A stretch of DNA of 64,000 nt, from positions 32,001 to 96,000 of the forward strand of contig JABHQW010000003.1 in NCBI GenBank assembly GCA_018696595.1, read 5' to 3'. Positions 2,274 to 22,717 of this stretch are shown piece by piece; the first letter of the stretch is position 1; the number at the start of each line of letters is the position of its first letter. The notes under the pieces were generated by a model. That model had not been told where the DNA came from and searched no databases. It was given only the letters and a program-made list of their open reading frames with translations. A program made the position numbers and the translations under genes. The DNA comes from Candidatus Woesearchaeota archaeon (GTDB lineage Archaea; Nanobdellota; Nanobdellia; Woesearchaeales; GW2011-AR9).

Positions 2274-2277
2274 AATC

Positions 2278-5560: not shown

Positions 5561-6975
5561 TAAGAACAATTATTCAAATTGCTAAATCAGCTGGGGAAAT
5601 CATTGAACAAGAAAAAAAAAATAAACATGAGGTTATGCTTAAAGAAGATAACAGCGTAGTTACAACAGTAGATTTGAAAGTTAACAATTTTATTATTTCT
5701 GAACTAAAGAAGTATTTCCCTGATAAAGAAATAATCAGTGAGGAACTAATCAGTATACCTACAAAAGATTCTTTCTTTATTATTGATCCGTTGGATGGGA
5801 CACAGGAATTCTTGAATTGCATTGATGAACCAGAAAAGTACACCGAGTATGCTGTCCAGATTGCTTATGTGGAAGACGGTTGTCCCATAATGGGTGTTGT
5901 TTATCAACCCGCTATTGATAAATTATATTACGCTGTTAAAAACAAAGGTGCTTTTTTGCAACAAGGAACTAGTATTAAGAGAATTTTTACAAAACAATCT
6001 AATCGTGTTGTTGTGGGTAGATATAATATTGATGAGGATCTAATAAAAATATTAAGCTCGAAATTCTCAAAAACCCTTTCCGAAGTTAGTCAGGTAGGAA
6101 GTTTCGGAATAAAAGTATGCCAAGTTGCTGAAGGTAAGTACAATTCTTTTGTTCATACTAATTTTGATAATAATAAAATTCATGCTTCTTTATGGGACTC
6201 TTCTGCTCCAGACATTATTCTTCGCGAAGCAGGTGGAAGATCATTTGAGATGAAAACTTTAGTGCCCATAGATTATTCTTCTAATAAAATAAACCTTACT
6301 CAGGGGTATATTGCCACTTCAAATAAAAGTAAAGTCATAATTGTTTTTGATGTTGATGGGGTTTTAGGAAACTTTGAGATCCTTAAAGAAAAGAGAGATG
6401 TTGCCCATATTACTGCAGTAGCTAATAATAATCTGATTAGTTTCCAAGAGGCTAAAAAGCTATTTATTACCACTAGGGAAAAACTAAGGGCTGTAGATCA
6501 GTTTTCTACTATTGATACAATGTTTCATCTTGGTATTAGTAAAGAAGAATTTTATAATATAATGAATTCAGTACCTATTGAAGGAGGGATTAGTTGTAAT
6601 CCTAACGCTAAAACAATATTACAGTACTTATCCAAAAATTGTACTTTAGTTGCTTTAACAAATACTCCTTACTTAGCAAATATTGAAACTTTAGACTATT
6701 TAAGATTATTAGAATATTTTGATAAAGTATATTCTATCGATAAATATAATTTTATTAAACCATCAGTGGAAATATTCGAGAGAATAAAGATGGATTTTGG
6801 GGCTGAGCAAGGCTATTCTATTGGTGATAATGCCCATAAAGATTTACTTCCTGCTAAGGAAGCAGGATTTAAAACTATTTTATTTGGAGATAAAAAAAAA
6901 GTAAGTGGTGTTGACTATAAAATAGATGATTTGGCTAAATTAAAAGAAATAATTAATCTAAAAAATGACAATTGA
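5557..6975 (+). CDS. CysQ/inositol-monophosphatase family domain fused to a C-terminal HAD hydrolase
   Basis: SEE, IIDPLDGTQEF and WDSSA (IMPase/CysQ), followed by FDVDGV, KPS and IGDNAHKD (HAD). ATGA overlap with the previous gene. Confidence 0.88.
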   Translation: MIRTIIQIAKSAGEIIEQEKKNKHEVMLKEDNSVVTTVDLKVNNFIISELKKYFPDKEIISEELISIPTKDSFFIIDPLDGTQEFLNCIDEPEKYTEYAVQIAYVEDGCPIMGVVYQPAIDKLYYAVKNKGAFLQQGTSIKRIFTKQSNRVVVGRYNIDEDLIKILSSKFSKTLSEVSQVGSFGIKVCQVAEGKYNSFVHTNFDNNKIHASLWDSSAPDIILREAGGRSFEMKTLVPIDYSSNKINLTQGYIATSNKSKVIIVFDVDGVLGNFEILKEKRDVAHITAVANNNLISFQEAKKLFITTREKLRAVDQFSTIDTMFHLGISKEEFYNIMNSVPIEGGISCNPNAKTILQYLSKNCTLVALTNTPYLANIETLDYLRLLEYFDKVYSIDKYNFIKPSVEIFERIKMDFGAEQGYSIGDNAHKDLLPAKEAGFKTILFGDKKKVSGVDYKIDDLAKLKEIINLKNDN

Positions 6976-9655
6976 TGATAAAATTGAAGAAGAGTACGAT
7001 GTAAGTAAAGAATGTGATCTTAAAAGTATAATTCCAGAAGTTGAAGAACATAAGAAGAAACTTTCTCAAGAGCAATTAGGGGAATTTAATTCTTTAGAAT
7101 CCAAATTAAAGCCATTGACCATTAATAATCCAGATCATGCTCATCCGGGCAACTCAGAAGCTTTAAGAAAAATGGGCAATATTTTTTATGAGAATGAAAT
7201 ATCTAATGATATTGCTTCTCAGTATTATCATCTTGCTTTTGAAGAATATTCTTCTGATGCGAGAATACTTTGTAATCTCGGAATTATTGCTAAAGAAAAA
7301 AATGACTATGAAAAAGCAAAAGAATATTTATGGAAATCTCTTAATTGGAATAAAAGTTTGTGGTTAGCTCATGATGCTCTTACTGATATTCTTAGTGATG
7401 AAAATGATACAACTGGAATGGTCACTTGGATCAATAAATTTATTAATTCTGTTGGAGGTAAGGGGAGTATAATTCAACTAGCGGGGATGGTAGAAGATTC
7501 AGATTATGAAGAAGATAATATTCTTTATCAATCATATGACGCATTAGAGGTTCTTGTTTCTGCAGATTATGGTGAAAGATTTGATGGTTACGATGTTTGC
7601 AAATTAATCCTTTCGGGGATAAATCCTCAACTTGCTAGTCAATATAATGGTCGTTTTGGTGCTTTGGATATTGTTAATTTACATAAAGCAGATTGTTCTC
7701 CAGAAAAAGCTAACACTTACGACGTTCGTTTTGGAGGCTTAGATATTGCACATCTAAAAATGGCAAGAGTAAAGAATGAAGAAGCAATTATTTATCCTGA
7801 ACATTTTGATGGTAGTTGTATATCTGCTTTAGTTCATGAGAATATTTCTCCAGAAGTTGCTGGTTCATATGGCGAGCCTTTAATGCCAACATACTTGAAT
7901 AAAGGATATTCTGGAACAAGCATTACCTGTTTTGTAAAATATGGTCTTAATGATAAAGATGTTAAAGATTATGGTGAACTTCCAAGTTCGGTAATTTGTT
8001 TATTGGTTGAAAATGGAATCTCAGCTGAACAATATAGACCTTATGGAGAAAAATTTGTAGATACAGAAAAGTGGCATAAAGTAGATTGGAAATCTTTAAT
8101 AAAATTGATTAATCGTGCTAAAAACTATGAAGAGATTGCTGAATATGATTCTTCTTTGGGTCTTGATGATATTATTCAACTAAATTACAATTCAATATCC
8201 TCTTCACTTGCTAACCAATATCACGGATTTAACGGTTCACAGATTTCTCGTTTAGTTGAATACAAGATTGAACCAGAAAAGATTCCTGAATATTCAGAAC
8301 GATTTGATAAAGAGGATATATCGTGGTTAGCTAGTTTTAATGTTTCTTCAGAATTTGCAGAAAAATTTGATCCAAGGTTTAAAGGTAATGATATTATCAA
8401 TTTAAAAGATGTGTATTCGCCAGAGATCACTCAATACAATGCTAAAATTCCTGCTATTATAATTAGGGCATTAATTAAAAATAATGTTTCACCTGAAAAA
8501 GCTGAGGAATATTTGAAACATTGGAACGAGTGGGAATTAATTGGGGTTTTTGATGTTCCTTTTGATATTGCTCGTAAATATAAAGAAAATAATGGTTTGC
8601 ACATTGGAAAAATGTATCGAAGCGGAATTATGCCTGAAGAAGCAAACAAATTTGATGATCGTTTTAGATCTGATGGTATTGTAGATTGTATTGAAGCAAA
8701 AGTTAGTCCAGAAATAGCTAATAGTTATCATGGGCGTTTTGATGAATATGGTGTTAGGCAATTAGTTGAGTTTAATTGTGATCCAAAGATTGCTAATACT
8801 TACGATGAGAGATTAAATGCTGAAGCTATTTTATTATTATCTAGCGTTGGTATTTTCCCAGGAATATTTAGTGAGAATTCTGAGATTTATTACAGTCTTT
8901 TAAAAGATATCACTCACTTTGAAGAAGATGATACTGATGATGATCAAGATAGTAATCTTTTAGGTGTTGGTTCACAAGGGATTGTGATTCTAAAGAATGA
9001 AAGTGCTTGGAAGTTTAGTCAGGATATTGATTATGAATATTCATTACTTAAAATGCTGGAGAATCCTAAGAATGTTATAGGGATAAAAAATAAACCAAAA
9101 AAAAGAGTTGCCTTGGAATTAGAATATGTTTCGGGCGACTCACTAAAAACGATTATGGGGAAAAAACTATTATCATTAGATAAAACATACCATTACTCAT
9201 TGGAAATATTTAACGGTCTTCAAGAACTTCGTCAAGCTGGGATTTATCAGCATCGTGATATTCGTCCAGCAAATATTATGGTTGACGAAGAAAAAGAAAG
9301 AGCAATAATAATTGATTTAGGAATTGCTACAACAGACCCATTAGATTTACCTAAAGATAACCGTAGATATGGCGGTCCAAACGATTTAGTTTCTCTTGGA
9401 CAAGTGATGTATAAAATGGCTACTGGCGAACATATTTTTGCTGAATCTGAATCTATGGAAAGAACTATTTACGCAGACAAGTTAAAAGATCATCGTGATT
9501 GGATTTACGAGGAAGATAAGAGATTAGGACCATATCTTAGAATAGTTAATGAAACTGTTACAGATGATAAAGTGGCAGATTTAATAAAATTATGTCTGAC
9601 GGCAAAAGGTACAGAAGAAGATTATCAGAGATTAGAAGAGAGATTTGCAACATAA
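6965..9655 (+). CDS. TPR + ~25-aa repeat + Ser/Thr protein kinase
   Basis: TPR-like ALRKMGNIFYE...ILCNLGIIAKEKNDYEKAKEYLWKSL, then PE.A..Y..RF repeats, then the kinase motifs LGVGSQGIV, WKFS, HRDIRPANI and IIDLGIA. Confidence 0.88.
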   Translation: MTIDDKIEEEYDVSKECDLKSIIPEVEEHKKKLSQEQLGEFNSLESKLKPLTINNPDHAHPGNSEALRKMGNIFYENEISNDIASQYYHLAFEEYSSDARILCNLGIIAKEKNDYEKAKEYLWKSLNWNKSLWLAHDALTDILSDENDTTGMVTWINKFINSVGGKGSIIQLAGMVEDSDYEEDNILYQSYDALEVLVSADYGERFDGYDVCKLILSGINPQLASQYNGRFGALDIVNLHKADCSPEKANTYDVRFGGLDIAHLKMARVKNEEAIIYPEHFDGSCISALVHENISPEVAGSYGEPLMPTYLNKGYSGTSITCFVKYGLNDKDVKDYGELPSSVICLLVENGISAEQYRPYGEKFVDTEKWHKVDWKSLIKLINRAKNYEEIAEYDSSLGLDDIIQLNYNSISSSLANQYHGFNGSQISRLVEYKIEPEKIPEYSERFDKEDISWLASFNVSSEFAEKFDPRFKGNDIINLKDVYSPEITQYNAKIPAIIIRALIKNNVSPEKAEEYLKHWNEWELIGVFDVPFDIARKYKENNGLHIGKMYRSGIMPEEANKFDDRFRSDGIVDCIEAKVSPEIANSYHGRFDEYGVRQLVEFNCDPKIANTYDERLNAEAILLLSSVGIFPGIFSENSEIYYSLLKDITHFEEDDTDDDQDSNLLGVGSQGIVILKNESAWKFSQDIDYEYSLLKMLENPKNVIGIKNKPKKRVALELEYVSGDSLKTIMGKKLLSLDKTYHYSLEIFNGLQELRQAGIYQHRDIRPANIMVDEEKERAIIIDLGIATTDPLDLPKDNRRYGGPNDLVSLGQVMYKMATGEHIFAESESMERTIYADKLKDHRDWIYEEDKRLGPYLRIVNETVTDDKVADLIKLCLTAKGTEEDYQRLEERFAT

Positions 9656-11395
9656 AAATGAAACTAGAAAGAATACTTGCGGAAACAGAACTGGCAAGAG
9701 ATTATCGAAGAATAATTAGATCGAATGATTTCTTAGGGGATAAAATAAAAGAAGCAGTTCAGAAAATTAGGGGTATTCATCAAGTTAAACGTTATTTAGG
9801 ACATGTTGATTTATTATCAAAAAAGTGGAGTGCTTATTTAGATGATCCTCCTGTTAATTATGGGATCGCTTTTGCTCATTATGCTTGGTTTAGTATGGAT
9901 TTGCCTTTTTACACTAGGGCTTTTTCTAAAGTAGAAGAAGAGTTTTCAGATGTCATTTCAGATATAATCCTTCAAGTGAATAAGAAAACTAATCATCTTT
10001 CTAAATTAGCTTACGTTTTTGAAACGCCGTATAATAAAAATTGGGGTAATACTTTGCCATATAAAAAACAACGTCAACAATACTTTTCTCTTCTACATAA
10101 ACTACAAGCTGTTGATCCAGATGTTATTGCCGATGCACATTATCTTCTTTCTTGTTTAATAAAGAATCAAGAAAAAGAATATCCTTTAGAAAAAATAGTG
10201 TCAAATATTTGTGAACTGGACAAATTGGGTGATGACCCCCATCTGAATTCATCCTCTGTCCAAGGGATGCCAGAAACTGTTAGATCACTTGCACAAACAT
10301 ATATTGAAGGTCTAAATTTTTTGGCAGGGCCAACATATATTAAAGAATTTGAAGAAGATTTAAATTTAAAAGACATACTTAATGACGATACAGTTGATTT
10401 ACATTTTGAAAAAGTAATCGCTTTTGCTAAAAAATGTGACTCTGTTTGTAATCAACGAAATCAATTAACAAACAACATAGATTATCTTGAATCTGTAGAA
10501 TATAAAGAGATAGATTCAAAAGCTGATAAGTACAATGGAATTGTTGGTGCTTTTGCAATGGGCCTTCCAATAATACAACAATTAAATCCAAGTGCCGTTG
10601 ATGATTATGTCCATACTGCTTCTGAAATGATAATTCGTGCTGTTGATATTAACAAAGTGGAATTAGCATTCAAAAGTTTAATTACCCATATGGGAGGTTA
10701 TAAATTAATATCTACGGGTATACGTTCAATTGTTGTTTTTTCTGGTGATTCTATCAGTAAGTTTTCATCAGACATCTCATATGAAGCAGAATTACATCAT
10801 AAATTAGAAAATCCAATAAATGTTGTTTCGGCAGTAAAAGAAAGCAATACTGAAATAACTTTAGAATTAAAATATATTCATGGTCACTCACTTGAAGAAT
10901 TAATGGATATTAATCAATTATCTTTAGATTTAATAAAGAAATATTCTTCAGGTATTTTCAACGGTCTTCAAGAACTTCGCCAAGTAGGGATTTATCAGCA
11001 TCGTGATATTCGTCCAGCAAATATTATGGTTGACGAAGAAAAAGAAAGAGCAATAATAATTGATTTAGGAATTGCTACAACAGACCCATTAGACCCCCCT
11101 AAAGATAACCGCAGATATGGCGGCCCAAACGATTTAGTTTCTCTCGGACAAGTGATGTATAAGATGGCTACTGGCGAACATATTTTTGCTGAATCTGAAT
11201 CTATGGAAAGAACGATTTACGCAGACGAGTTAAAAGATCATCGTGATTGGATTTATGGGGGAGATGAAAGGTTAGATCCATATCTTAGAATAGTTAATGA
11301 AACTGTTACAGATGATAAAGTGGCAGATTTAATAAAATTATGTCTGACGGCAAAAGGTACAGAAGAAGATTATCAGAGATTAGAGGAGAGGTTTG
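9212..11395 (+). repeat. 436-bp direct repeat (9212-9647 and 10960-11395) encoding the kinase C-lobes
   Basis: Manual alignment shows no indels and 23 mismatches (~95% identity). Confidence 0.95.
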
Positions 11396-11409
11396 AAAAT
11401 ATTGTTTGA
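9658..11409 (+). CDS. Ser/Thr protein kinase with an unrelated N-terminal domain and a degenerate Gly-rich loop
   Basis: ATG at 9658 lies two bases after the upstream stop and is preferred over the track start at 9592. HRDIRPANI and DLG are intact; the G-loop reads ISTGIRSIV. Confidence 0.85.
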   Translation: MKLERILAETELARDYRRIIRSNDFLGDKIKEAVQKIRGIHQVKRYLGHVDLLSKKWSAYLDDPPVNYGIAFAHYAWFSMDLPFYTRAFSKVEEEFSDVISDIILQVNKKTNHLSKLAYVFETPYNKNWGNTLPYKKQRQQYFSLLHKLQAVDPDVIADAHYLLSCLIKNQEKEYPLEKIVSNICELDKLGDDPHLNSSSVQGMPETVRSLAQTYIEGLNFLAGPTYIKEFEEDLNLKDILNDDTVDLHFEKVIAFAKKCDSVCNQRNQLTNNIDYLESVEYKEIDSKADKYNGIVGAFAMGLPIIQQLNPSAVDDYVHTASEMIIRAVDINKVELAFKSLITHMGGYKLISTGIRSIVVFSGDSISKFSSDISYEAELHHKLENPINVVSAVKESNTEITLELKYIHGHSLEELMDINQLSLDLIKKYSSGIFNGLQELRQVGIYQHRDIRPANIMVDEEKERAIIIDLGIATTDPLDPPKDNRRYGGPNDLVSLGQVMYKMATGEHIFAESESMERTIYADELKDHRDWIYGGDERLDPYLRIVNETVTDDKVADLIKLCLTAKGTEEDYQRLEERFENIV

Positions 11410-11416
11410 AGATAGA

Positions 11417-12367
11417 CTAATGTGATTCGCTTTTATTTTTTCCTAGTTCTCTAATAATAGTGGCTCTAACAAAATCATTGATACAATCTAAAAATGGACT
11501 CACTTCATTAATTACTTTTAATTCATTTAAACCAAAATTAATATTTTCCATTCTTTTTATCAACTCGTACCTCTTATTGGTTAAGTTATGTTCCAAACTA
11601 CCTTTATGTAAGTGAAGAAAGTGTTCATAGACTAGTTCAAATATTTCTTGAAGAATATTTTTAACTCTTAGTGTGCAACCAAACCTAGCAGTTTTTTCTA
11701 CTAAATGTCTATATTTATCCATCATTTTATCAACAATCAGATATAAAGTGAATAATTGTGCCTTTTCTTCTTGACTTTTATCTGACTTATCTAAGACTCT
11801 CAGAAAATAAGTGATAAACTTACAAACATTATCATGGTAATCATAAGCATTTTCAGCATATAAATGGAAATCTTTTCCTATACTTTTTAAATATTCTTCC
11901 ATTACTTCTTTAAAAAGAAAAAATATTCTTTTTTCAATTATATTAATATTTTCTTCCTTATCTGTTAGGAAACAACGGAGTTCAGTCCTGTTCTTGGTTT
12001 GAGAAACTATTTCCATGCCAATGAAACGGGTAATCATTTTTTTTTTGATTAAAGATAAAATGTTAATGTTTTTATTATTTTTACCATCATAGATCTCAGG
12101 TTTAGAATACATAAGTGTGATTTTATTATAGTTGGTAATATATAATGTCTCCAAATATCTTCCCAGGATATGTTTATTAAAACCACTAATATCCAGCGTA
12201 ATCTTTTTTTCTTTCTCTTTTCTTTCTCCTAAAGAGAAATTAATTTCTTTTTCCCCTAAAGAGACGTCTAATTCATCTCCCTTAGAAACATTATTCTTTT
12301 TAACCCACTTGTTAGGCAAGGAAACCATTAACGTACTAGGACCAATTTGAGCTACTTTTCGCTTCAT
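11417..12367 (-). CDS. AbrB/SpoVT-domain PhoU-like regulator
   Basis: N-terminus RKVAQIGPSTLMVSLPNKWVKKNNVSKGDEL followed by helical PhoU-like repeats, typical of archaeal phosphate uptake regulators. Confidence 0.8.
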   Translation of the reverse strand: MKRKVAQIGPSTLMVSLPNKWVKKNNVSKGDELDVSLGEKEINFSLGERKEKEKKITLDISGFNKHILGRYLETLYITNYNKITLMYSKPEIYDGKNNKNINILSLIKKKMITRFIGMEIVSQTKNRTELRCFLTDKEENINIIEKRIFFLFKEVMEEYLKSIGKDFHLYAENAYDYHDNVCKFITYFLRVLDKSDKSQEEKAQLFTLYLIVDKMMDKYRHLVEKTARFGCTLRVKNILQEIFELVYEHFLHLHKGSLEHNLTNKRYELIKRMENINFGLNELKVINEVSPFLDCINDFVRATIIRELGKNKSESH

Positions 12368-12482
12368 AATTCCAATAATCTCGGATAATATTTAAACTTT
12401 TCGGAAAATTATAATATTATAATGCATTATTATAATATAATCATTAAATATATATTCCTCTTTAAGTTTACTAATAGTTAAG

Positions 12483-12500
12483 AACGGAACAATTTCCGTT
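12483..12500. promoter_or_regulatory. 18-bp palindrome AACGGAA-caat-TTCCGTT just before the GGAGG RBS of ORF 12514
   Basis: Perfect 7-bp arms read directly from the sequence. Confidence 0.6.
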
Positions 12501-12513
12501 TGGAGGCAAAAAA

Positions 12514-12936
12514 ATGAAAAAACATATGGTTGAAAAAGATGGGATTTATGGTGCATTAATTATGGCTGCAAAGAACCCTAATACAGATTCTTCAAAGAAT
12601 CTAGCAAAAGCGGGATTGAACTTTCAGTATAAGAAAAATCAAATCATGGAACAATATGTAATACCTGTTAATGGTGGGATATATCAAGTTCAAGTATTAG
12701 ATTTCTTAGGTGATCAATATGGACTTGAAGGAGTAATGGCTATGGGTGTAAATACTAATGGGGATGAAATGAACAATGTGTTGGATTTTCTCTTAACTAC
12801 AGCAGGGATTGTACCTTTAGATCAAGAAGTATTTAATGGCAATCCATTAAAAGAAAAATACACTGAAGTACTTGAAAAAATGGTTACTGATTATGCAAAT
12901 ACTTTGGTAATTAATACACCAGACACAGTGAATTAA
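12514..12936 (+). CDS. Hypothetical protein
   Basis: GGAGG RBS and a 1-bp gap to the downstream Lrp gene. No recognisable domain. Confidence 0.7.
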   Translation: MKKHMVEKDGIYGALIMAAKNPNTDSSKNLAKAGLNFQYKKNQIMEQYVIPVNGGIYQVQVLDFLGDQYGLEGVMAMGVNTNGDEMNNVLDFLLTTAGIVPLDQEVFNGNPLKEKYTEVLEKMVTDYANTLVINTPDTVN

Positions 12937-12937
12937 A

Positions 12938-13375
12938 ATGAATCCAAAAACCTTACAACTCTTGATGCATTTAAGAGAGAACTCTAGAGAGAAGCTTACA
13001 AGTATTAGTAAAAAAACTAATATCCCGATCTCTACCCTCTTTGATCTGTTGAAAGAGTTGCAGGGGGGTTTAATTCTCAAAAGTACTGTTTTATTAGATT
13101 ATTCTAAGTTGGGTTATCATGCTAGAGCAAAAGTGTTTCTGAAAGTAAGTAATGAGAATAAAGAGAAATTAAAAAACCACTTGAACTTAAATCCCAATGT
13201 GAACACAATTTACAAAATTAATAATGGGTGGAGTTTTTTAATTGAAACTGTACATAAGAATATTAAAGAATTAGATATTTTTCTGGAGAAGTTAGAAGAT
13301 AATTATAATATTGAAAACAAACAAATTCATTATTTAATTGATGAAGTTAAAAGAGAAGGTTTTGTGGTTGATTGA
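12938..13375 (+). CDS. Lrp/AsnC family transcriptional regulator
   Basis: N-terminal HTH (LRENSREKLTSISKKTNIPISTL), LDYSKLGY linker and a RAM-like C-terminus. Confidence 0.9.
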   Translation: MNPKTLQLLMHLRENSREKLTSISKKTNIPISTLFDLLKELQGGLILKSTVLLDYSKLGYHARAKVFLKVSNENKEKLKNHLNLNPNVNTIYKINNGWSFLIETVHKNIKELDIFLEKLEDNYNIENKQIHYLIDEVKREGFVVD

Positions 13376-13384
13376 ATATTAAAT

Positions 13385-14593
13385 TCATTTAATCTCTTTA
13401 TATCCTAAAACCTGGTTTTCTTTATCTCTTAATTCAACATATTTTTCTGGTTCTCTAGCTATGTCATACCAGAATCTTACTCTGCTGAATCCGTTCTTTG
13501 CTTTTCCATTACATCTAATTACGCCCATTCCAGCCCAAGGAACTGGCTGTGTTTTTTTGTTTACCAAATGAATCCCTAATTGTCCACTTTTTGGATGAAC
13601 TGTTCCTCTTAGATGTTCAGAAAAATACTTCTCCAAAACCTTTAATTCTCTAAGTGTATAATTTAAAGCTAAGTATCCTACAGTAAAGTCTTCAATATTT
13701 TGATCTATAACTTCTCTTCTTTCATCTTTACTTATGTTTTCCCCATATACTAAATCATGAAAATAATCAAACTCTTCTTGAGTTGATTCTCCATGAACTG
13801 GAACAAAGTTATTGCCAACAAGTGTGTCTAAATTTAGATTTCTTTTTGAATTTCTAGCCAACTCACAAACTTCTGGTTTTTTTCTTATGGTTTCCCATGA
13901 TGCATGAAGATTACTCAAATGCTTTTTATAACAATCATCCCACTGACTTTTAAATGGAGATACTAGATCCTCTATAATATCATATACTTTAATTGGTGCC
14001 TTTAGGTGTTTTATAATTTCCTTTAATTCATCACGATAATTTCTTGCACAACTTTTATCAACACCAAATAAATCAGAATATAGTATCCCATCACTTGCAA
14101 TTATTATTTCTACTCCTGGTTCATAAACTCTTTGTATAGAATCAGAAATTCCCGATAATTGGGTCACTGAAGCAATCTCAGCTAAACCCGCAATTCTTGA
14201 ATTGTTCCGTAAAGGATTTGGTAACTTAAATGGAAATGAAGGGATAATAATTTTTATAGGTTCATTAGATGAGATTGAATTATTAAAATTATTGATGAAA
14301 TATTCTTTGCTTTCAGTTAAATTACATGCAGGGCCATTTCTAATCCTCTGATTTAAAAATATGGAAAGAATCTTTTCAGCTAAGTTTCCATTGTATTTAC
14401 GTGCATTATTTCCTATTGATTCATAAATACATTTATGTAATTCCTTCCATTCTGAATAATCAAAATTTTCAATTTGTTTTATCTCAATCTCTTTTTTCTC
14501 AGATAGCTTGCCTAATGATTTTCTAAAAAAGAATTCTGGTTCAGCGACTGTACTCATTATTACTCTTTCATCAAATTGTTTTGCTAATGTCAT
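13385..14593 (-). CDS. DIT1/PvcA-family (isocyanide synthase-like) protein
   Basis: IIIPSFPFKLPNP, AEIAS..QL...SDSIQRVYEPGVEIIIASDG.LYSD and RGTVHPKSGQLGIHL...PW match the DIT1/PvcA pattern as recalled. Confidence 0.8.
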   Translation of the reverse strand: MTLAKQFDERVIMSTVAEPEFFFRKSLGKLSEKKEIEIKQIENFDYSEWKELHKCIYESIGNNARKYNGNLAEKILSIFLNQRIRNGPACNLTESKEYFINNFNNSISSNEPIKIIIPSFPFKLPNPLRNNSRIAGLAEIASVTQLSGISDSIQRVYEPGVEIIIASDGILYSDLFGVDKSCARNYRDELKEIIKHLKAPIKVYDIIEDLVSPFKSQWDDCYKKHLSNLHASWETIRKKPEVCELARNSKRNLNLDTLVGNNFVPVHGESTQEEFDYFHDLVYGENISKDERREVIDQNIEDFTVGYLALNYTLRELKVLEKYFSEHLRGTVHPKSGQLGIHLVNKKTQPVPWAGMGVIRCNGKAKNGFSRVRFWYDIAREPEKYVELRDKENQVLGYKEIK

Positions 14594-14641
14594 GAGTATT
14601 AATTTGATGACAATATAAAAGTGTATTTCTACAGAAAAACC

Positions 14642-14704
14642 GTAATATTTCCGAGCGATTTAAATGGATATAAGAAGAATAACATTCTATTCGTAAATTA
14701 TCCG
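14642..14704. promoter_or_regulatory. Two 13-bp operator-like sites (14642-14654, 14692-14704) in the divergent isocyanide synthase/oxidoreductase promoter region
   Basis: CGTAATATTTCCG and CGTAAATTATCCG, both followed by AG and spaced 50 bp apart. Confidence 0.65.
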
Positions 14705-14751
14705 AGAAGTCTGTAGAAATGTTTATTAAATGATTAGAATATTAATGTTAT

Positions 14752-15738
14752 ATGAAAGCGTATCAACTAATAAAATATGGGCCTTCCAAGGAAGCATTTA
14801 AAACAATTGATGTAAAGACTCCAGAGATCAATGATGATGAACTTCTTGTTAAAGTTAAAGCAGCAGGAATTAATCCTGTTGATATTAAGATGAGATTAGG
14901 AATGATTCCTTCACTTGATCTACCAACTATTTTGGGTTATGATTTCTCAGGTGTTGTGGAGAAAGTTGGCAAGAATGTTACTCGGTTTAAGATTGGTGAT
15001 GAGGTATATTCAGCTGGTGCTAATCCTCATGATAAAGGAGGATCTTATGCAGAATACACTGCAGTAAATGAAAGATTAGCTGCAATAAAACCAAAGAATA
15101 TTACTTTTGTAGAAGCTGCTTCAATTCCTCTCGTGGGAATTACTGCTTATGAAGCTATATTCGAAAAACTAAATCTTCAAGAAAAAGAAGATATACTCAT
15201 TCATGGCGGTACTGGTGGTGTTGGATCAATTGCAATTCAATTAGCAAAACTTAAAGGGGCAGAAGTTTACTCAACCATCAGTTCACTTAGGAAAAAGAAG
15301 ATTGTTGAATCTTTGGGGGCCATTAGTATTGACTACACCGAAGAATGTTTTGTAAGGTATGCAAAGAATCTTCCAGGGAGTGGTTTTACAAAAATATTTG
15401 ATACTGTTGGTGGTAAAGTTTTCCAAGAAAGTTTGGGAGCACTTAAGCCCTATGGTCAAATAGCTTCAATTTTAAATGTTTTTGATGAAAGTTTAGATTT
15501 AAGTAGTGCAATGATTAATAATGCTTCTATACATTTTACAATGATGCTTTTACCTCTTAGATTGGGATTATATGATCAAATGAAAAAACAAGGGGTCATA
15601 CTTGAGAATTTATGTCATTTAATTGAATCTGGAAAAATAGTTCCAAGAGTAGAAAAAGTATTTTCAGATATGATTAAAGCTCATAATCATGCAGAAAAAG
15701 GTGGATTAGAAGGAAAACTAGTTGTTGAGTTTAATTAA
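14752..15738 (+). CDS. NAD(P)H-dependent quinone-oxidoreductase-like MDR enzyme (zinc-independent)
   Basis: GINPVD, GYDFSGVV, GGSYAEY and ILIHGGTGGVGSIAIQLAK motifs. No zinc-binding Cys cluster. Confidence 0.9.
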   Translation: MKAYQLIKYGPSKEAFKTIDVKTPEINDDELLVKVKAAGINPVDIKMRLGMIPSLDLPTILGYDFSGVVEKVGKNVTRFKIGDEVYSAGANPHDKGGSYAEYTAVNERLAAIKPKNITFVEAASIPLVGITAYEAIFEKLNLQEKEDILIHGGTGGVGSIAIQLAKLKGAEVYSTISSLRKKKIVESLGAISIDYTEECFVRYAKNLPGSGFTKIFDTVGGKVFQESLGALKPYGQIASILNVFDESLDLSSAMINNASIHFTMMLLPLRLGLYDQMKKQGVILENLCHLIESGKIVPRVEKVFSDMIKAHNHAEKGGLEGKLVVEFN

Positions 15739-15776
15739 TATTTAACACCATTTTATATACTTATCAAACTAAAACC

Positions 15777-16334
15777 ATGAAAATGACATACATATCTTTT
15801 AAAGAGAGAGAAACTAAAAATAATTATGCTGCCGATGAAGTTATTTCTGCATTACAAAAAGAAATTCGTCGTGGTAATCTAGAATCTGCATGTTTCTTTG
15901 GATTAGAATTGTTGGAATCTGGTTTGGAATTTGAAACCAAGTTTTGGGAAAGAATACTAGTGATTTCTGTTGAAGATATTGACGACGATAATAAAATACC
16001 ACTCATTAGATCATTAAAAGAAAATTACTTTGATTTAGTAAACTCAAAAAATTGGGACAAACATATGCAAGCAATTCAAGCTATAAAGATTCTGTGTGAA
16101 GCTAAGAAGGGCAGGATTATTAGTGAATTATATGATGTACTACAATTAAGGAAAAAAGATGGCTGGAAAGTTAAGGTACCAGATTATGCACTTGACAAAC
16201 ATACTAAGAAAGGAAAAGAAATGGGTAGAAGTTATAACCATTTCTTTGTTGAAGCTGCAAAAATAATTAATGTAAATAAAGTTGAAGATTTTAGATATCT
16301 AAATGAACTAAAAAAATATTATAAAATTAATTAA
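15777..16334 (+). CDS. Stand-alone RarA/MgsA-like helical domain protein
   Basis: DEVISALQKEIRRG, RILVISVEDI and VPDYALDKHT motifs. No Walker motifs. Confidence 0.6.
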   Translation: MKMTYISFKERETKNNYAADEVISALQKEIRRGNLESACFFGLELLESGLEFETKFWERILVISVEDIDDDNKIPLIRSLKENYFDLVNSKNWDKHMQAIQAIKILCEAKKGRIISELYDVLQLRKKDGWKVKVPDYALDKHTKKGKEMGRSYNHFFVEAAKIINVNKVEDFRYLNELKKYYKIN

Positions 16335-17434
16335 AATTTTTTCTTAAATTCTCTTAAAACTAATTCCGATAACAAAACATTTGAATCAACACTATCTTTA
16401 ATTTCATCTTCTTTCATTAAACTAACTCTAGGTGCCCCTTCAGGTGCACGAATTAAAATAATATCACTTTCAGGAAATCTTTTACTAGCAAGTCTTGCAG
16501 TAGCTAATGATTTGCCATCATCATAGTATTTTTTAGGTAGATAAATTGTTTTACTTTTTGAAAATGATGTTAATGATAGACTGGGAGCATCCAAATTAGT
16601 TGGGCTTCCAGATAAATCAAAACTATTTTCGCCAACTAATATTATATTTGGTGATCTTGTTGAAATAAATGTTGGTTCAATTATATCAATCTCAATATCA
16701 TCTTGACCAACACGCGGCATTTTATTTAATAAATAGTTCTGCCAAAAAGATTTCACGCATTCACGAACATTAGTTGTACCTTTTAGCTTTCTTATTTCTG
16801 CTGTTTTTTCTTCACCTAAATCCCATTCTCTAGAATCATATGTTGAGCAATTAGATTCACTCCAATCTTTAATAAAAGTAGCAAAAGTCACATAATCACT
16901 TAATCGGGGAACTCTCGTAATATCCCATCCTTCTAATACTCTTGTACACTCAGTTAAAGTTCTTGGCGTGCTAAAATATTTGACGCCTTCTGCATCTAAC
17001 TTTTCGAACAATTTCTTTTCATGATAAACTTCAATTAATGAAACTCTTCCAAAAGTGTCAACAATTTCTTTATTTTCTTCAAATGCAGTTCCATCTAAAA
17101 CGCTGGCTTTTAATTGCATGAAAGAATAATACATTGGAATACTTAATGCACCTGCGCCTTTATTCAGATACCAGACATCAGGCATTCTTAATCCAATATC
17201 CTCATCATCTTCTGGACAAAGTTCATCTTGGTGTACTTGATAGCCTTCTTCAGATAATAGGTCTGCAAGAATATCTGTGTTTAATCCACCATAAGTTAAT
17301 ATTGGTAATTTAGAAGTTGTTTCTAAATCGAGATTATTATGTGAATTATTTAAATCACAAACATAAATTCTTGATTCGATCTTTCTAATATTTAATGGGT
17401 TTCTTATTTTTTGTTTTAAGTTTGTTTCGTACAT
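16331..17434 (-). CDS. Hypothetical protein
   Basis: 367-aa ORF convergent with 15777..16334. No recognised domain. Confidence 0.75.
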   Translation of the reverse strand: MYETNLKQKIRNPLNIRKIESRIYVCDLNNSHNNLDLETTSKLPILTYGGLNTDILADLLSEEGYQVHQDELCPEDDEDIGLRMPDVWYLNKGAGALSIPMYYSFMQLKASVLDGTAFEENKEIVDTFGRVSLIEVYHEKKLFEKLDAEGVKYFSTPRTLTECTRVLEGWDITRVPRLSDYVTFATFIKDWSESNCSTYDSREWDLGEEKTAEIRKLKGTTNVRECVKSFWQNYLLNKMPRVGQDDIEIDIIEPTFISTRSPNIILVGENSFDLSGSPTNLDAPSLSLTSFSKSKTIYLPKKYYDDGKSLATARLASKRFPESDIILIRAPEGAPRVSLMKEDEIKDSVDSNVLLSELVLREFKKKF

Positions 17435-17593: not shown

Positions 17594-18028
17594 ATGAAAG
17601 AAAAAGAGCGGTTAATAATTTCACACTTAAGAAAAGATGCACGTTCTAGTTTAGCTTCAATTTCTTTTGATATTAAAATGCCCATTTCTACAATCTATGA
17701 TAAGATTAACCGTTTTCAAAAAGACAAGACTATCAGAAAACAGGTTGCACTAATAGATTTCAGAAAGTTAGGTTATCATCATCATACAAAATTAGCTTTA
17801 CAAGTTCCTCGTTTACAGAAACAATCCTTACAAGAATTCTTAACTAACCATTCAGCAATTAATTCTATTCATGAAATTAATAGTGATTATGATTTTATGG
17901 TTGAAACAGTGCATAAAGACATTAAAGAATATTTAGATTTTATTGAAACTTTAAATGAATCTTTTGACATTACGAATAAACAAGAATTTCAAATCATTAA
18001 TGATCTTGCAAGAGAAAAGTTTGTTTAA
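17594..18028 (+). CDS. Lrp/AsnC family transcriptional regulator
   Basis: HLRKDARSSLASISFDIKMPISTIYD HTH, IDFRKLGY linker and a RAM-like domain. Paralogue of 12938..13375. Confidence 0.9.
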   Translation: MKEKERLIISHLRKDARSSLASISFDIKMPISTIYDKINRFQKDKTIRKQVALIDFRKLGYHHHTKLALQVPRLQKQSLQEFLTNHSAINSIHEINSDYDFMVETVHKDIKEYLDFIETLNESFDITNKQEFQIINDLAREKFV

Positions 18029-19032
18029 ATTAATAATCCTTCGTTCGGTTCTGGGAATGAACCCTTTTCCAAAAATTCATTGATTAATTGTTTGGCAGAC
18101 TTACCATGATAATCTTTTGCAAACTTTTTCTTTGTTTGGGCAATGTGTCTCTGAAGTTCTTCGGGAAGAGTTCGTTCTCTGAAAAGGTTTTCCATTACTT
18201 CTTCTGGCTGATCTGTTTCGTAAAGTTTTCCAAATAACTTTGGTACCACTAATTCCTCTAGGATCTCAGAGTAAGTTCCAAGGGTTGTAACTTGAATTCC
18301 AGTATTCAATGATCCTCTTTCCAAGTTTTCTGGGTCATAAAGCACAACGTAAGCTTTTTTAGGAACTACCTTATCATTTTCTCTTAGTTCTTTAGTTTCT
18401 ACCTCAACTTCTAAAGTGATACTAGCACCAGGACCAAACAATCCCCGGTCATTTTGTTCATAAATATCAGGAGTAAATGGAATAATTATTTTTGGTAACT
18501 TTCTTCGTTCTTCAAATAAAGGCGGTCTGTTTTCATTTCCTTCGTTAGTAAGCGTATTACTTTCATCAAGTTCAATTTCCATATATGGTAATACTTCGTA
18601 AGGATAAGCACTTTCATTTATTTTAACTTCATAACTTTTTACTGTTCCTTCTAAATTAACAATAATTTTCTTCTTTGCTGGATCATAACAACTAAAGTTA
18701 CCCCAATTATCAATTTCAATTCTACGTTCTGGTGATGTGAGTTTACTTGTTAATGAATTAATAATTTCTTCTTGAGCTTCTCTTTCATCTCCAGCCAATT
18801 CACTTTCTTTATCTGCATTCCAACCAGTTAATCTATATTCAGCAAGAATTGTACCACTTTGAGAAATACTATAAACAGTTGAACAATCTTCAATCCCAGT
18901 ACTCGTTCTTCTACCCTTAATCACATTTGCTCTAGCTGAATATTCTTCACCAACTTGAGTATTATCAACTACAAAATCAATAAAATCCGTATAATTTGTA
19001 AATATTTGTGGTTCGCTCATAATGTTATCCAT
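18025..19032 (-). CDS. Hypothetical protein
   Basis: 335-aa acidic ORF with its own TATA-like element. No recognised domain. Confidence 0.7.
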   Translation of the reverse strand: MDNIMSEPQIFTNYTDFIDFVVDNTQVGEEYSARANVIKGRRTSTGIEDCSTVYSISQSGTILAEYRLTGWNADKESELAGDEREAQEEIINSLTSKLTSPERRIEIDNWGNFSCYDPAKKKIIVNLEGTVKSYEVKINESAYPYEVLPYMEIELDESNTLTNEGNENRPPLFEERRKLPKIIIPFTPDIYEQNDRGLFGPGASITLEVEVETKELRENDKVVPKKAYVVLYDPENLERGSLNTGIQVTTLGTYSEILEELVVPKLFGKLYETDQPEEVMENLFRERTLPEELQRHIAQTKKKFAKDYHGKSAKQLINEFLEKGSFPEPNEGLLI

Positions 19033-19141
19033 TTTTAATTATTTGCTTATAAATCTTTCTATTTATTTACTACTCTTGTGTGATTATTCTCTTGACAACA
19101 AATAATTTTATAAATCCAAGGGGTCTGCTAAAAATTGTAAA

Positions 19142-19684
19142 ATGGGGGATGTAATAGATGTTTGCAAAAGAAGACAATTTCCTGCCGTGATTGTAAATGG
19201 TAGGGAGGGTTCACAAAGAGATTACGTACTACGAGAATTAATCGGAATTTTAACTGTGTTTTATAGTGGTTGTGGATTTACTTTTTCAAGCACTTCAAGG
19301 GAAGGAGAATCTAGGTGGAAACGACCTAAACTCTATTTTAATGTGTTTGATCCTAAAGGCAACAAGTCAACTAGAGTTGCTATTGAAGAACGTAGAGATG
19401 GAGTCAGAACATTAAAGGAAGATTCTGGTAGGGATTATGCAGCTTCTCCATTAACAAGATACTCTCCTTGTTTTGCTATTTATTTTGATTCTCAACGTGA
19501 TGAAAGATTTTTTAGAAATAAAATGAAGCGTAGTGGTGAACAAGGTGGTCTTGAGGGCAAGATTGTTAATTTAGAAGAATTCTTAATCCGGGAAAGAGAG
19601 AAGTATAGTTATGTGCAAAGAGACCTGTTTCACAATCACTTAAAACCTCAACTTGAATCTAAGAGAAGGGCAGAAAATTATTAA
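19142..19684 (+). CDS. Hypothetical protein
   Basis: 180-aa ORF with TTTATAAA about 30 nt upstream. Confidence 0.65.
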   Translation: MGDVIDVCKRRQFPAVIVNGREGSQRDYVLRELIGILTVFYSGCGFTFSSTSREGESRWKRPKLYFNVFDPKGNKSTRVAIEERRDGVRTLKEDSGRDYAASPLTRYSPCFAIYFDSQRDERFFRNKMKRSGEQGGLEGKIVNLEEFLIREREKYSYVQRDLFHNHLKPQLESKRRAENY

Positions 19685-20910
19685 ACTAACTTCCCATTAA
19701 AGATATTATGTTTATCTCTACTAATCTTAACTCTAACTTTTTTTCCTTTCTTAAAATCACAGTTCGGGATAGAAATTACTCTGTTCTTTGCTACAGCGAT
19801 ACAAGAATTTGCAAATCTATCTGGAGACTTAATAATCGCTTTCACTGTATCATCAATTTGGAAGGGTTTATCTAACTCTTTAGTTTTTTGAATTCCAAAG
19901 TCTGTTGCTGATAACTTTTGTTTAGTTGCAGTCTTCTCACTTAACTCGTTAATCATTTGATAAAACTCTTGCCAAGACTTTGCCCTAGTTGGATTTCTTC
20001 CAGTTTTATAATTAAGAAAATTTTGTATTCCAATAATGGGGTGTTTTGCTTTCTTTTCAATACCTAACTCTTTAACAAAGTTAACAATCTTAACTAATTC
20101 TTGGTCATTATATCCGGGAAGATAAACTGGAGCGATTAAAACTTTAACCTCTTTTTCTACGGCATATTTAATCATTTTCATAACATAGTTAACATTATAT
20201 TTGCAACCTGCCATTTTTTCTGCCAGTTCTGGATCAATGGCATCTAAAGAAACATTAAATCTTAACTTGTCTTTGAATTTAGATAACTCATCTATTTGCG
20301 ACTTAGTAACAATAGTAAAATTTGAGTCCATAGAAATAATTGTTATTTGTTTGTTATTGTACAAATCTTCAACTAACGGTATTAAGTCTGCATACAAGAA
20401 AGGTTCTCCTTGTACCCCAATATGAATCTCGACTGGTTCTTCTACAAATTTAAGTAACTGTTGTAATTCTTCTACTAAGTAATCTTTTTCGACAACAAAG
20501 TCAGTTTTCTTTGACTTTTTCCCTTCACCAACAGAACAGTAAATACAATCTAAATTGCAAGAAGTTACTGGCTTGATTTCGATAAGTGAAGTGTTCCTGT
20601 AAACAATCCCAAAAGAAACATGACCAATTAAAGGAACTCCTGAATTTTGATGAATGTAAACTGCTTTGTTTCCATTAATTGAGTTTTTTAATTGATCCAG
20701 ATGTTTAGCTAAAAGATTAGAAAAATTTCGTTCTGCTTTATCTTGATAAGTTTCTGTAAACTCTAAAGTGTGTTCATCAACTAATTTAAACGGCCCAACT
20801 TGATTTAGTTCTTCTACCAGAATTTTTGTGTAGAAGATATTAAGAAGATTAACCTGTAATTGATCTTTCTTAAGTACGAATGATAATGTTTTGAAGTTCA
20901 GTTGTGCCAT
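19681..20910 (-). CDS. Radical SAM protein with a C-terminal TRAM-like domain
   Basis: CNLDCIYC (CX3CX2C), GVQGEP and C-terminal beta-rich AVAKNRVISI...VRVKISRDKHNIF. Confidence 0.85.
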   Translation of the reverse strand: MAQLNFKTLSFVLKKDQLQVNLLNIFYTKILVEELNQVGPFKLVDEHTLEFTETYQDKAERNFSNLLAKHLDQLKNSINGNKAVYIHQNSGVPLIGHVSFGIVYRNTSLIEIKPVTSCNLDCIYCSVGEGKKSKKTDFVVEKDYLVEELQQLLKFVEEPVEIHIGVQGEPFLYADLIPLVEDLYNNKQITIISMDSNFTIVTKSQIDELSKFKDKLRFNVSLDAIDPELAEKMAGCKYNVNYVMKMIKYAVEKEVKVLIAPVYLPGYNDQELVKIVNFVKELGIEKKAKHPIIGIQNFLNYKTGRNPTRAKSWQEFYQMINELSEKTATKQKLSATDFGIQKTKELDKPFQIDDTVKAIIKSPDRFANSCIAVAKNRVISIPNCDFKKGKKVRVKISRDKHNIFNGKLV

Positions 20911-21039
20911 ATTTGCTCTATTTCTGCCTTATTTTATAAACTTATTGTTATCTGTCATTGAGAGATGGTAACTTAATCTGTGGTCTTAAGAAAAGATAAA
21001 CTTTTTAATAAGGTGCTCTTATAGAATTTTAGGGGGTTT

Positions 21040-21807: not shown

Positions 21808-21808
21808 A

Positions 21809-22387: not shown

Positions 22388-22422
22388 TTAAATGTTTAGT
22401 TTTCCGTAAAGTTTTTGCCTAA

Positions 22423-22716: not shown

Positions 22717-22717
22717 T

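What the first reader, a model, noticed from the sequence alone, without database searches (positions are those of the whole stretch)
13385..14593. Isocyanide-synthase (DIT1/PvcA) homologue in a DPANN-type archaeon
Seen: the family motifs are present with substitutions such as PWA instead of PWH and an altered segment after PNP. Known: PvcA/IsnA/Dit1 enzymes convert an amino acid alpha-amine to an isonitrile or N-formyl group using ribulose-5-phosphate, and are characterised in bacteria and fungi, often yielding metal-chelating metabolites. Inference: secondary metabolism in an organism expected to be biosynthetically minimal, possibly new chemistry, since no PvcB-type dioxygenase or NRPS lies nearby.
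Basis: partly seen in the sequence, partly recalled or inferred. Interest (0 to 1): 0.8.

Follow-up and report, generated by a model that had tools for sequence, protein, structure and literature searches.

The report
Isonitrile-synthase-like gene in DPANN archaeon
A tiny marine symbiont-type archaeon carries an intact but unusual relative of the bacterial and fungal enzymes that turn an amino acid's amine into an isonitrile or formyl group, paired with a reductase instead of the usual partner enzymes, so it probably makes an undescribed small molecule whose chemistry is still untested.

Summary
ORF 13385-14593 (-) encodes a 402-aa protein that matches Pfam DIT1_PvcA at 96 bits against a cut-off of 26. 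Its high-confidence model superposes on PvcA and PIsnA at Z 25-27. The host is a 1.19-Mb Woesearchaeota/Nanoarchaeota-type genome.

The protein is not a PvcA orthologue. It scores 64 bits against a cut-off of 600 on the PvcA equivalog. It belongs to an uncharacterised branch of about 400-aa proteins with an HPK motif, and within that to a well-supported six-sequence clade whose known contexts are archaeal.

It keeps nearly all family-conserved residues. The exceptions are Gly136, where 93% of relatives and both solved enzymes have Asp, and Ala354 in place of the PWH histidine, a position that varies in this branch.

No PvcB-type dioxygenase and no P450 was found in the genome. Ribulose-5-phosphate enzymes (RPE, RpiB) are present.

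A zinc-less quinone/enone-reductase-type gene is transcribed divergently from the gene, and an Lrp/AsnC regulator gene lies beside it. This module, and parts of its 158-bp control region, recur in a relative at about 58% identity. Other clade members sit beside nitroreductases.

The block is accessory. It was not found in a same-genus genome, and the family is rare in the phylum.

The scan has noted other, more divergent PF05141-like genes in DPANN and CPR genomes before. The product is unknown.

The parts
13385..14593 (-). 402-aa DIT1/PvcA-family (isonitrile-synthase-like) enzyme. Residues about 65-401 form the PvcA fold. It has an N-terminal extension of about 64 aa. It carries Gly136 and Ala354 at two family positions.
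14594..14751 (.). 158-bp divergent control region. It holds two copies of a 15-nt box (14641-14655 and 14692-14706, 51 nt apart), a central 14-mer GATATAAGAAGAAT (14667-14680), a 30-nt imperfect inverted repeat (14625-14654 / 14691-14720), and TATA-like AT-runs about 20-30 nt before each start codon.
   Evidence: The box and the 14-mer occur nowhere else in the 1.19-Mb genome. The 14-mer and flanking CCGTAA elements are conserved in the 157-bp counterpart of L012. Operator and TATA roles are inferred.
14752..15738 (+). 328-aa zinc-less MDR oxidoreductase of the quinone/enone-reductase (zeta-crystallin/PIG3) type, transcribed divergently from the synthase-like gene.
   Evidence: best PDB match is the 4ida enone oxidoreductase at 164 bits, then QORs. 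GYD replaces the zinc-binding GHE motif (alignment). A 57%-identical orthologue sits in the same divergent position in L012.
12938..13375 (+). 145-aa Lrp/AsnC-type regulator, convergent with the synthase-like gene. Candidate local regulator.
   Evidence: A 65%-identical orthologue sits in the same relative position in L012, and a 48%-identical one lies near P0002 in L010.
12514..12936 (+). 140-aa protein of no known family, 1 nt upstream of the Lrp/AsnC gene and probably co-transcribed with it.
   Evidence: Not conserved with the module in L010 or L012.
11417..12367 (-). 316-aa protein with an AbrB/MazE-like N-terminal DNA-binding domain. A 54%-identical copy lies next to the module in L012.
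15777..17434 (.). Two genes of no known family (185 aa on +, 367 aa on -) that fill the rest of the accessory block up to the core Lrp gene at 17594.
   Evidence: They gave no tblastn hit (E <= 1e-6) in the 15-kb syntenic stretch L041 of same-genus genome G001.

Best explanation
The gene encodes a functional cytosolic enzyme of the PvcA/IsnA/Dit1 superfamily. It belongs to a small branch of that family whose known contexts are archaeal. The most likely mechanism follows the characterised members: it condenses the alpha-amine of an amino acid (identity unknown) with the C2 carbonyl of ribulose-5-phosphate and cleaves the adduct, leaving a one-carbon unit on the nitrogen. The product would be an alpha-isocyano or, as for Dit1, an N-formyl amino acid.

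It is expressed from a symmetric divergent promoter region together with an NADPH-dependent quinone/enone-type reductase, probably under the neighbouring Lrp/AsnC regulator. The reductase either processes the product or removes a reactive carbonyl co-product. The two genes plus the regulator form an accessory module that moves among DPANN lineages.

Shown: family membership, fold, conservation of most family residues, the conserved module and control region, accessory distribution, and the presence of Ru5P-forming enzymes.

Inferred: substrate, product, the role of the reductase, and regulation by Lrp.
For: Family, fold and residues:
- PF05141 at 96.4 bits against a cut-off of 26.4.
- Model pLDDT 94.1. 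Z 26.8 to PvcA and 24.5-24.7 to PIsnA bound to Tyr or to its isonitrile product, over nearly the whole PvcA chain.
- Family-conserved K123, N126, E139, Y157, G160, D168, G169, Y172, Y186, Y307, R329, T331, H333, P334, K335, P352, W353 and G355 are all retained.

Clade and module:
- The six-member clade has 100% SH-aLRT support, 58 invariant columns and conserved start positions.
- An orthologous MDR (57% identity), Lrp/AsnC (65%) and AbrB-like gene (54%) flank the 58%-identical homologue in L012.
- The two intergenic regions are of equal length and share a 14-mer. The box and the 14-mer are unique in the genome.
- P0002 and P0008 sit directly beside nitroreductases, a second NAD(P)H-reductase class.

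Substrate supply: RPE (143.6 bits) and RpiB (132.4 bits) are present, so Ru5P is a metabolite of this cell.

Known chemistry of the family: alpha-amine of Tyr/Trp plus a carbon of Ru5P (PMC7949033). Dit1 gives formyl-tyrosine (PMC7345447).
Against: - No member of the HPK branch that holds this protein is characterised. None of the 134 nearest representatives has the HPQ motif of PvcA/PIsnA.
- The PvcA equivalog model is failed by far: 64 bits against 600, covering only aa 103-207.
- Asp136, present in 93% of relatives and in both solved enzymes, is Gly. It caps the helix after strand 1. In the related class-I tRNA-synthetase fold that position carries the HIGH motif (inference), so the change may alter catalysis or substrate.
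- The PWH His is Ala.
- No known isonitrile pathway uses an MDR or a nitroreductase partner, as far as I know.
- A distant family member on an Agrobacterium plasmid sits among TRAP-transporter, ROK-kinase and SIS-isomerase genes. This hints that the family is not restricted to isonitrile formation.
Confidence: 0.5

Rival explanations
1. Same scaffold, different outcome. The enzyme forms the amine-ketose-phosphate imine or Amadori-type adduct but does not carry out the C-C cleavages. The adjacent NAD(P)H reductase (MDR here and in P0003; nitroreductase in P0002 and P0008) reduces the adduct or a derived enone, giving an opine-like N-alkylated amino acid or another sugar-amine conjugate.
For: - A near-invariant Asp is lost, together with the PWH His.
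- NAD(P)H reductases are immediate neighbours in 4 of 6 clade contexts.
- The best PDB relative of the MDR is an enone oxidoreductase acting on a sugar-phosphate-derived furanone (4ida), although ordinary QORs score almost as well.
- The Agrobacterium plasmid homologue lies in a locus that looks like sugar-amine uptake and catabolism.
- An earlier scan note proposed the same for a Micrarchaeota PF05141-like pair with a ROK kinase (unchecked).
Against: - All other family-conserved residues are retained.
- P0005, P0008 and P0009 in the same clade keep the Asp.
- MDR/QOR enzymes and nitroreductases usually reduce quinones or enones, not imines.
- The Agrobacterium protein is a very long branch (2.26) far from this clade.
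- No precedent is known for this chemistry in PF05141.
Confidence: 0.27
2. Canonical isonitrile or N-formyl chemistry, with the reductase only loosely linked. The quinone/enone reductase and the nitroreductases are general stress or detoxification genes. They may clear reactive carbonyl co-products of Ru5P cleavage, or quinones, and they share a stress-responsive regulator with the synthase-like gene rather than a pathway.
For: - QOR-type MDRs and nitroreductases are common detoxification enzymes.
- The partner class differs between clade members.
- P0005 has neither partner class adjacent. Near P0009 the only redox gene is a Pyr_redox_2 flavoprotein two genes away.
- A glyoxalase gene lies about 4 kb from P0002.
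Against: - The divergent MDR pairing, the spacing of the control region and its central 14-mer are kept at about 58% protein identity.
- The MDR was not found in same-genus or same-family genomes that lack the synthase-like gene. The two genes therefore travel together.
Confidence: 0.15
3. The protein is catalytically dead and serves a binding or regulatory role, or is a decaying remnant of a transferred gene.
For: - Two conserved positions are substituted: D136G and H354A.
- It is an orphan accessory gene in a reduced genome.
Against: - The ORF is full length, with a conserved start and a pLDDT of 94.
- Eighteen family-conserved residues are intact.
- The same two substitutions are fixed in four sequences that have diverged to 58-63% identity, which argues for selection and not decay.
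- The exact protein sequence is indexed in 50 blocks of the public-assembly collection, including Saanich Inlet at 200 m.
Confidence: 0.06

Closest known systems
PvcA (Pseudomonas aeruginosa, PDB 3E59) and PIsnA (PDB 9DH4/9DHM), the L-Tyr isonitrile synthases
   Same: Same Pfam family and the same fold over the whole catalytic chain: Z 26.8 and 24.5-24.7, 279-288 aligned residues. Shared motifs are P-x-F-P-x-K-x-P-N, (S/C)DG, R-x-(S/T)-x-H-P and P-W-x-G.
   Different: - 19-21% identity.
- About 64 extra N-terminal residues.
- HPK instead of HPQ, Gly instead of the Asp of PDMAE, and Ala instead of the His of PWHG.
- Fails the PvcA equivalog (64 bits against 600).
- No PvcB/IsnB Fe/2OG dioxygenase in the genome. 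The partner is a QOR-type reductase.
Dit1 (Saccharomyces cerevisiae), spore-wall N-formyl-tyrosine synthesis with the P450 Dit2
   Same: Same Pfam family. A longer protein with an N-terminal extension, standing alone without a fused dioxygenase. It shows that the family can yield a product other than a stable isonitrile (PMC7345447).
   Different: No P450 was found in the genome. The host is an archaeon. No Dit1 sequence was available for comparison, so its relation to this clade is untested.
Uncharacterised bacterial 'L-tyrosine/L-tryptophan isonitrile synthase family' proteins of about 370-420 aa, e.g. Priestia megaterium WP_310876672.1, Allokutzneria albata WP_083383682.1, Streptomyces sp. 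8N706 and B. thuringiensis pLM1
   Same: The nearest relatives outside the clade, at 27-32% identity. They have the same length class, the HPK motif and a variable residue after PW. They sit in small clusters with exporters and tailoring enzymes: MFS, ATP-grasp, methyltransferase, S51 peptidase, LeuA/LeuB-like genes plus an aminotransferase.
   Different: All but one of them keep the Asp that is Gly here. They are bacterial. None of the contexts examined has the MDR/Lrp module. None is biochemically characterised, as far as I could find.

Membership tests
Pfam PF05141 DIT1_PvcA superfamily | Profile match above the curated gathering score | tested here: met
   96.4 bits against 26.4, E 2.7e-27, profile positions 4-255 of 273
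Pfam PF05141 DIT1_PvcA superfamily | PvcA/PIsnA three-dimensional fold over the full catalytic chain | tested here: met
   AF2 pLDDT 94.1. VIA-align Z 26.8 (3e59_B, 287 aa, rmsd 3.2) and Z 24.7/24.5 (9dh4, 9dhm). Next fold Z 9.3.
Pfam PF05141 DIT1_PvcA superfamily | Family-conserved residues (Lys of FPxK, Asn of PN, Asp and Glu of PDxxE, (S/C)DG, RxTxHP, PWxG) | tested here: inconclusive
   Eighteen conserved positions are kept. The Asp of PDxxE (125 of 134 relatives; PvcA and PIsnA) is Gly136. The residue after PW is Ala, at a position that varies (H 60, N 49, M 10, A 4, S 4, Q 3). The catalytic roles of these residues could not be looked up: the PvcA paper PMC2701257 is not held, and no paper naming the PIsnA entries or 'PIsnA' was found.
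L-tyrosine isonitrile synthase PvcA (NCBIfam NF045653, equivalog) | Equivalog-level score over the whole protein | tested here: not met
   64.3 bits against a cut-off of 600, matching only aa 103-207
IsnA/IsnB- or PvcA/PvcB-type vinyl-isonitrile pathway | Partner Fe(II)/2-oxoglutarate dioxygenase (PF02668), adjacent or fused | tested here: not met
   No PF02668 match in the 97%-complete genome; the control genome rang
Dit1/Dit2-type pathway | Partner cytochrome P450 | tested here: not met
   No PF00067 match in the genome; 8 control genomes rang
Isonitrile synthases (IsnA type) | Availability of the co-substrate ribulose-5-phosphate | tested here: met
   Ribulose-phosphate 3-epimerase at 143.6 bits and RpiB at 132.4 bits, about 2 kb apart on contig C3
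Isonitrile synthases (IsnA type) | Formation of an isonitrile from an amino acid and Ru5P | not testable with these tools
   Needs enzyme assay or heterologous expression

The most novel reading that the evidence does not exclude
A DPANN archaeon makes an amino-acid-derived isonitrile, or a related N-C1 or N-alkyl metabolite, through a new two-enzyme route. The route would pair a PvcA-fold synthase that carries small residues (Gly136, Ala354) at two conserved positions with an NAD(P)H quinone/enone-type reductase in place of the usual oxygenase. This would be the first archaeal member of this chemistry. The product might serve in metal binding or in dealing with the host.
Probability: 0.3. Interest if true: 0.7.

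Novelty: new variant of a known kind. Interest (0 to 1): 0.5.

Why it matters
Isonitrile and N-formyl amino-acid chemistry of the PvcA/IsnA/Dit1 type has been described only in bacteria and eukaryotes. The tree-of-life survey of PF05141 lists no archaea (PMC5974471). DPANN archaea are regarded as biosynthetically minimal.

An intact, conserved and apparently regulated module in such a genome points to a dedicated small molecule in a symbiont-type cell. The reductase partner and the two substituted positions point to a variation on the known reaction. The module is short, two genes plus a regulator, so it is easy to express and test.

Tried and rejected
- Papers for the PIsnA structures (9DH4/9DHM/9DHN) and for PvcA (PMC2701257) were sought, to assign roles to Asp136 and His354. 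None is held, so the residue roles stay inferred.
- The word-based homologue search found only 7-10 relatives, even with a 134-sequence profile. The exhaustive representative search was needed.
- The genome-contig scan with the 13-sequence alignment failed for lack of a conserved stretch. With six sequences it returned only two Actinomycetota loci.
- No canonical PvcA/IsnA sequence could be obtained by reference. The tree therefore has no characterised outgroup, and neither the root nor a donor can be stated.
- I tested whether the 185-aa ORF after the MDR, or the 140-aa ORF, correspond to the nitroreductase or the 140-aa protein near P0002. They do not.
- The metagenome copies L005-L009 are 100% identical in DNA, so they give no measure of selection.
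- Base composition gives no sign of recent foreign origin: GC is about 0.30 for the block against 0.32 for the genome.
- No complex prediction was run. Gene neighbourhood alone did not justify it.

Full report
**What is there.** ORF 13385-14593 on the minus strand is uninterrupted and encodes 402 aa.
- It matches Pfam PF05141 (DIT1_PvcA) at 96.4 bits against a gathering score of 26.4, over aa 106-363.
- By sequence it finds the solved isonitrile synthases PIsnA (9dhm/9dh4) and PvcA (3e59) at E about 5e-12.
- An AlphaFold2 model built on 134 relatives has mean pLDDT 94.1.
- Foldseek ranks PvcA and PIsnA first, at E 3e-14 to 3e-12.
- VIA-align gives Z 26.8 to PvcA (287 residues, rmsd 3.2, model 70-401 on chain 8-318) and Z 24.5-24.7 to PIsnA bound to L-Tyr or to its isonitrile product. 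Tyrosyl-tRNA synthetases follow far behind at Z 9.3.

The protein is therefore a full-length PvcA-fold enzyme with about 64 extra N-terminal residues.

**The host.** The window carries archaeal GINS51, a fused PriS-PriL primase and the S13-S4-S11-RpoD-L18e-L13 operon.
- The genome has 1.19 Mb in 8 contigs and is 97% complete.
- Genomes of its family and order measure 0.6-2.1 Mb.
- Every named relative of the primase is annotated as Candidatus Woesearchaeota, Nanoarchaeota or Nanoarchaeia. This independently supports the DPANN label that earlier scan notes also used.
- The identical protein sequence is indexed in 50 blocks of the public-assembly collection; 24 contigs were read, one of them from Saanich Inlet at 200 m. 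The five copies fetched are 100% identical in DNA.

**Where it sits in the family.** It is not a PvcA orthologue. The NCBIfam equivalog for L-tyrosine isonitrile synthase gives 64 bits against a cut-off of 600, and only over aa 103-207.
- An exhaustive search of 1.84 billion representatives gave 1027 relatives at E <= 1e-3 but only ten at E <= 1e-30.
- The nearest 134 full-length relatives are mostly 370-420 aa. At the PvcA/PIsnA HPQ motif, 117 of the 134 have Lys (HPK) and none has Gln. This is a separate branch, and I found no characterised member of it.
- Named members are bacterial: Priestia megaterium, a gammaproteobacterial MAG, Allokutzneria, Streptomyces, and a B. thuringiensis plasmid.
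- In an IQ-TREE tree of 45 rows, the query groups with P0002, P0003, P0005, P0008 and P0009 at 100% SH-aLRT on a stem of 0.95 changes per site. The sister group has weak support (81) and a bacterial context. The backbone is unresolved.

**The clade's contexts are archaeal where they can be read.**
- Neighbours of P0008 are 72-76% identical to genes of this genome at a different locus.
- P0003 has an orthologous module.
- Neighbours of P0002 are 37-48% identical to genes of this genome.
- P0005 lies beside ribosomal protein S3Ae on a contig with 53% GC.

**Residues.** Across the 134 relatives the query keeps K123, N126, E139, Y157, G160, D168, G169, Y172, Y186, Y307, R329, T331, H333, P334, K335, P352, W353 and G355. 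There are two departures.
- Gly136 replaces the Asp of the PDMAE motif. That Asp is present in 125 of 134 relatives and in both PvcA and PIsnA. The Gly is shared by the four closest sequences, P0001-P0004, while P0005, P0008 and P0009 keep Asp.
- Ala354 replaces the His of PWHG. That position varies in this branch (H 60, N 49, M 10, A 4, S 4, Q 3), so it says little by itself.

Residue 136 caps the helix that follows strand 1. In the structurally related class-I tRNA-synthetase fold that position carries the HIGH signature, so I infer that it lies at the active site. I could not measure this, because the coordinates and the structural papers were not available.

The two substitutions are fixed across sequences only 58-63% identical. 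That argues for an altered but selected function and not decay.

**Partners and regulation.** The genome has no TauD/PvcB-type dioxygenase and no P450. The known downstream enzymes of both the IsnA/PvcA and the Dit1 pathways were therefore not found.
- A 328-aa MDR oxidoreductase is transcribed divergently, 158 bp away (14752-15738). It lacks the zinc-binding GHE motif. Its best solved relatives are an enone oxidoreductase (4ida, 164 bits) and quinone oxidoreductases.
- An Lrp/AsnC regulator gene (12938-13375) is convergent with the synthase-like gene.
- In L012, which carries the 58%-identical P0003, the same arrangement recurs: MDR at 57% identity, Lrp/AsnC at 65%, and an AbrB-like gene at 54%.
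- If the L012 reductase starts at its conserved Met25, its intergenic region is 157 bp long. It shares the central 14-mer GATATAAGAAGAAT and flanking CCGTAA elements with the window.
- In the window, two 15-nt boxes lie 51 nt apart on either side of that 14-mer, inside a 30-nt imperfect inverted repeat. The box and the 14-mer occur nowhere else in the genome.
- TATA-like AT-runs lie about 20-30 nt before each start codon (read). This is weak evidence in DNA with 30% GC.
- Other clade members sit beside nitroreductase-family genes. The nitroreductase is divergent from P0002, next to an ABC exporter, and directly downstream of P0008.

An NAD(P)H-dependent reductase is thus the immediate neighbour in four of six contexts.

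**Distribution.** PF05141 occurs once in this genome.
- Among 60 relatives (35 of the same family, 25 other families of the order) no other genome has a match above the cut-off.
- In an even sample of 401 high-quality genomes of the phylum, 3 have a match above the cut-off and 6 have weaker matches.
- One of the three, G274, has a shorter 309-aa form at 203 bits, next to a PheRS-alpha-like gene. It carries its own variant motifs.
- Clade-specific matches were found only in this genome; the sole other hit, G274, is that shorter form.
- The same-genus genome G001 is syntenic for window 17594-23905 at 61-78% identity. The block 11417-17434 gave no tblastn hit in the 15-kb syntenic stretch fetched.
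- The MDR was not found in G001, G002, G012 or G029. G001 and G002 are only 81-84% complete.
- A close relative of this genome carries the 40%-identical P0008, with a nitroreductase, a TraB-like gene and a NUDIX gene, at a different locus.

The module is therefore accessory and mobile among these archaea. Its base composition is native-like.

**How it most likely works.** Characterised family members join the alpha-amine of Tyr or Trp to a carbon of ribulose-5-phosphate to give an isonitrile (PMC7949033). Dit1 gives formyl-tyrosine (PMC7345447).
- This genome encodes ribulose-phosphate 3-epimerase and RpiB, so the co-substrate is available.
- I consider amine-Ru5P condensation leading to an N-C1 product (isonitrile or formyl) the most likely reaction, at about 0.5. 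The reductase would then process the product or clear a reactive co-product.
- The main rival, at about 0.27, is that the reaction stops at the adduct and the reductase fixes it as an N-alkyl conjugate. Support comes from the lost Asp, the recurrent reductases, and a distant Agrobacterium plasmid homologue set among TRAP-transporter, ROK-kinase and SIS-isomerase genes.
- A dead protein is unlikely, at about 0.06.

**Novelty.** The published tree-of-life survey of PF05141 lists bacteria, fungi, oomycetes, an amoebozoan and a moss, and does not mention archaea (PMC5974471). My literature searches found no archaeal isonitrile synthase. Earlier notes of this scan had already flagged other, more divergent PF05141-like genes in DPANN and CPR genomes and in phages. 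The presence of the superfamily in ultra-small cells is therefore not unique to this window. What is new here is a conventional, high-scoring member that forms a clade with archaeal contexts, carries two substituted family positions, and has a conserved reductase and Lrp module.

Noticed in passing
window 27006-28568 (+): A 520-aa primase in which PriS-like and PriL-like domains are fused in one chain. It has thousands of relatives, and all the named ones are from Woesearchaeota or Nanoarchaeota.
   Followed up: partly
window 44666-47050 (+) and 47123-52630 (+): A 794-aa protein with five MopE-type copper-binding motifs fused to an FGE-sulfatase-like domain, followed by a 1835-aa NosD/beta-helix protein. 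Possibly copper-related surface proteins. Isonitriles are known copper ligands, but these genes lie 30 kb away and no link was tested.
   Followed up: no
window 2337-4763, 6965-9655, 9592-11409 (+): Three large Ser/Thr protein-kinase-domain proteins within 9 kb, one with TPR repeats. This is unusual density for a 1.2-Mb genome.
   Followed up: no
window 5557-6975 (+): Inositol-monophosphatase domain fused to a HAD hydrolase domain (472 aa), directly after a separate HAD gene.
   Followed up: no
window 35029-37539 (+) and 38729-40978 (-): A bacterial-type five-domain MutS and a type IA topoisomerase with zinc ribbons in this DPANN genome.
   Followed up: no
L017/L044 (G274:C53), ORF 1462-2391: Another genome of the same order has a short 309-aa PF05141 protein (203 bits) beside a PheRS-alpha-like gene. 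It has KHH in place of HPQ/HPK and PWLN in place of PWHG.
   Followed up: partly
L020/L021, genes 4935-8282: A close relative of this genome (neighbours 72-76% identical) carries a four-gene block at a different locus: a 40%-identical PF05141 paralogue, a nitroreductase, a TraB/GumN-like gene and a NUDIX gene. The block lies between an HhH-GPD glycosylase and an aminotransferase that are about 1.3 kb apart in this genome.
   Followed up: partly
L023 (Agrobacterium sp. 33MFTa1.1 plasmid NZ_CP036360.1), 6836-7951: A PF05141-family gene embedded among TRAP transporter, ROK kinase, SIS phosphosugar isomerase and amino-acid ABC transporter genes. The setting looks catabolic or like sugar-amine (opine/Amadori) handling, not an isonitrile cluster.
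   Followed up: no
L004 (Streptomyces sp. 8N706), 178-6796: A PF05141 homologue in an operon-like row with LeuA-like, isopropylmalate-dehydrogenase-like and class IV aminotransferase genes. This suggests a homologated, non-aromatic amino-acid substrate in that branch.
   Followed up: no
L025 (Priestia megaterium GCA_030270625.1), 5752-10120; P0156: An MFS, PF05141, LdmS-like ATP-grasp ligase and HAD cassette lies on a contig that also carries a MobA/MobL relaxase gene. Separately, an 834-aa protein fuses MerR-HTH and methyltransferase domains to PF05141.
   Followed up: no
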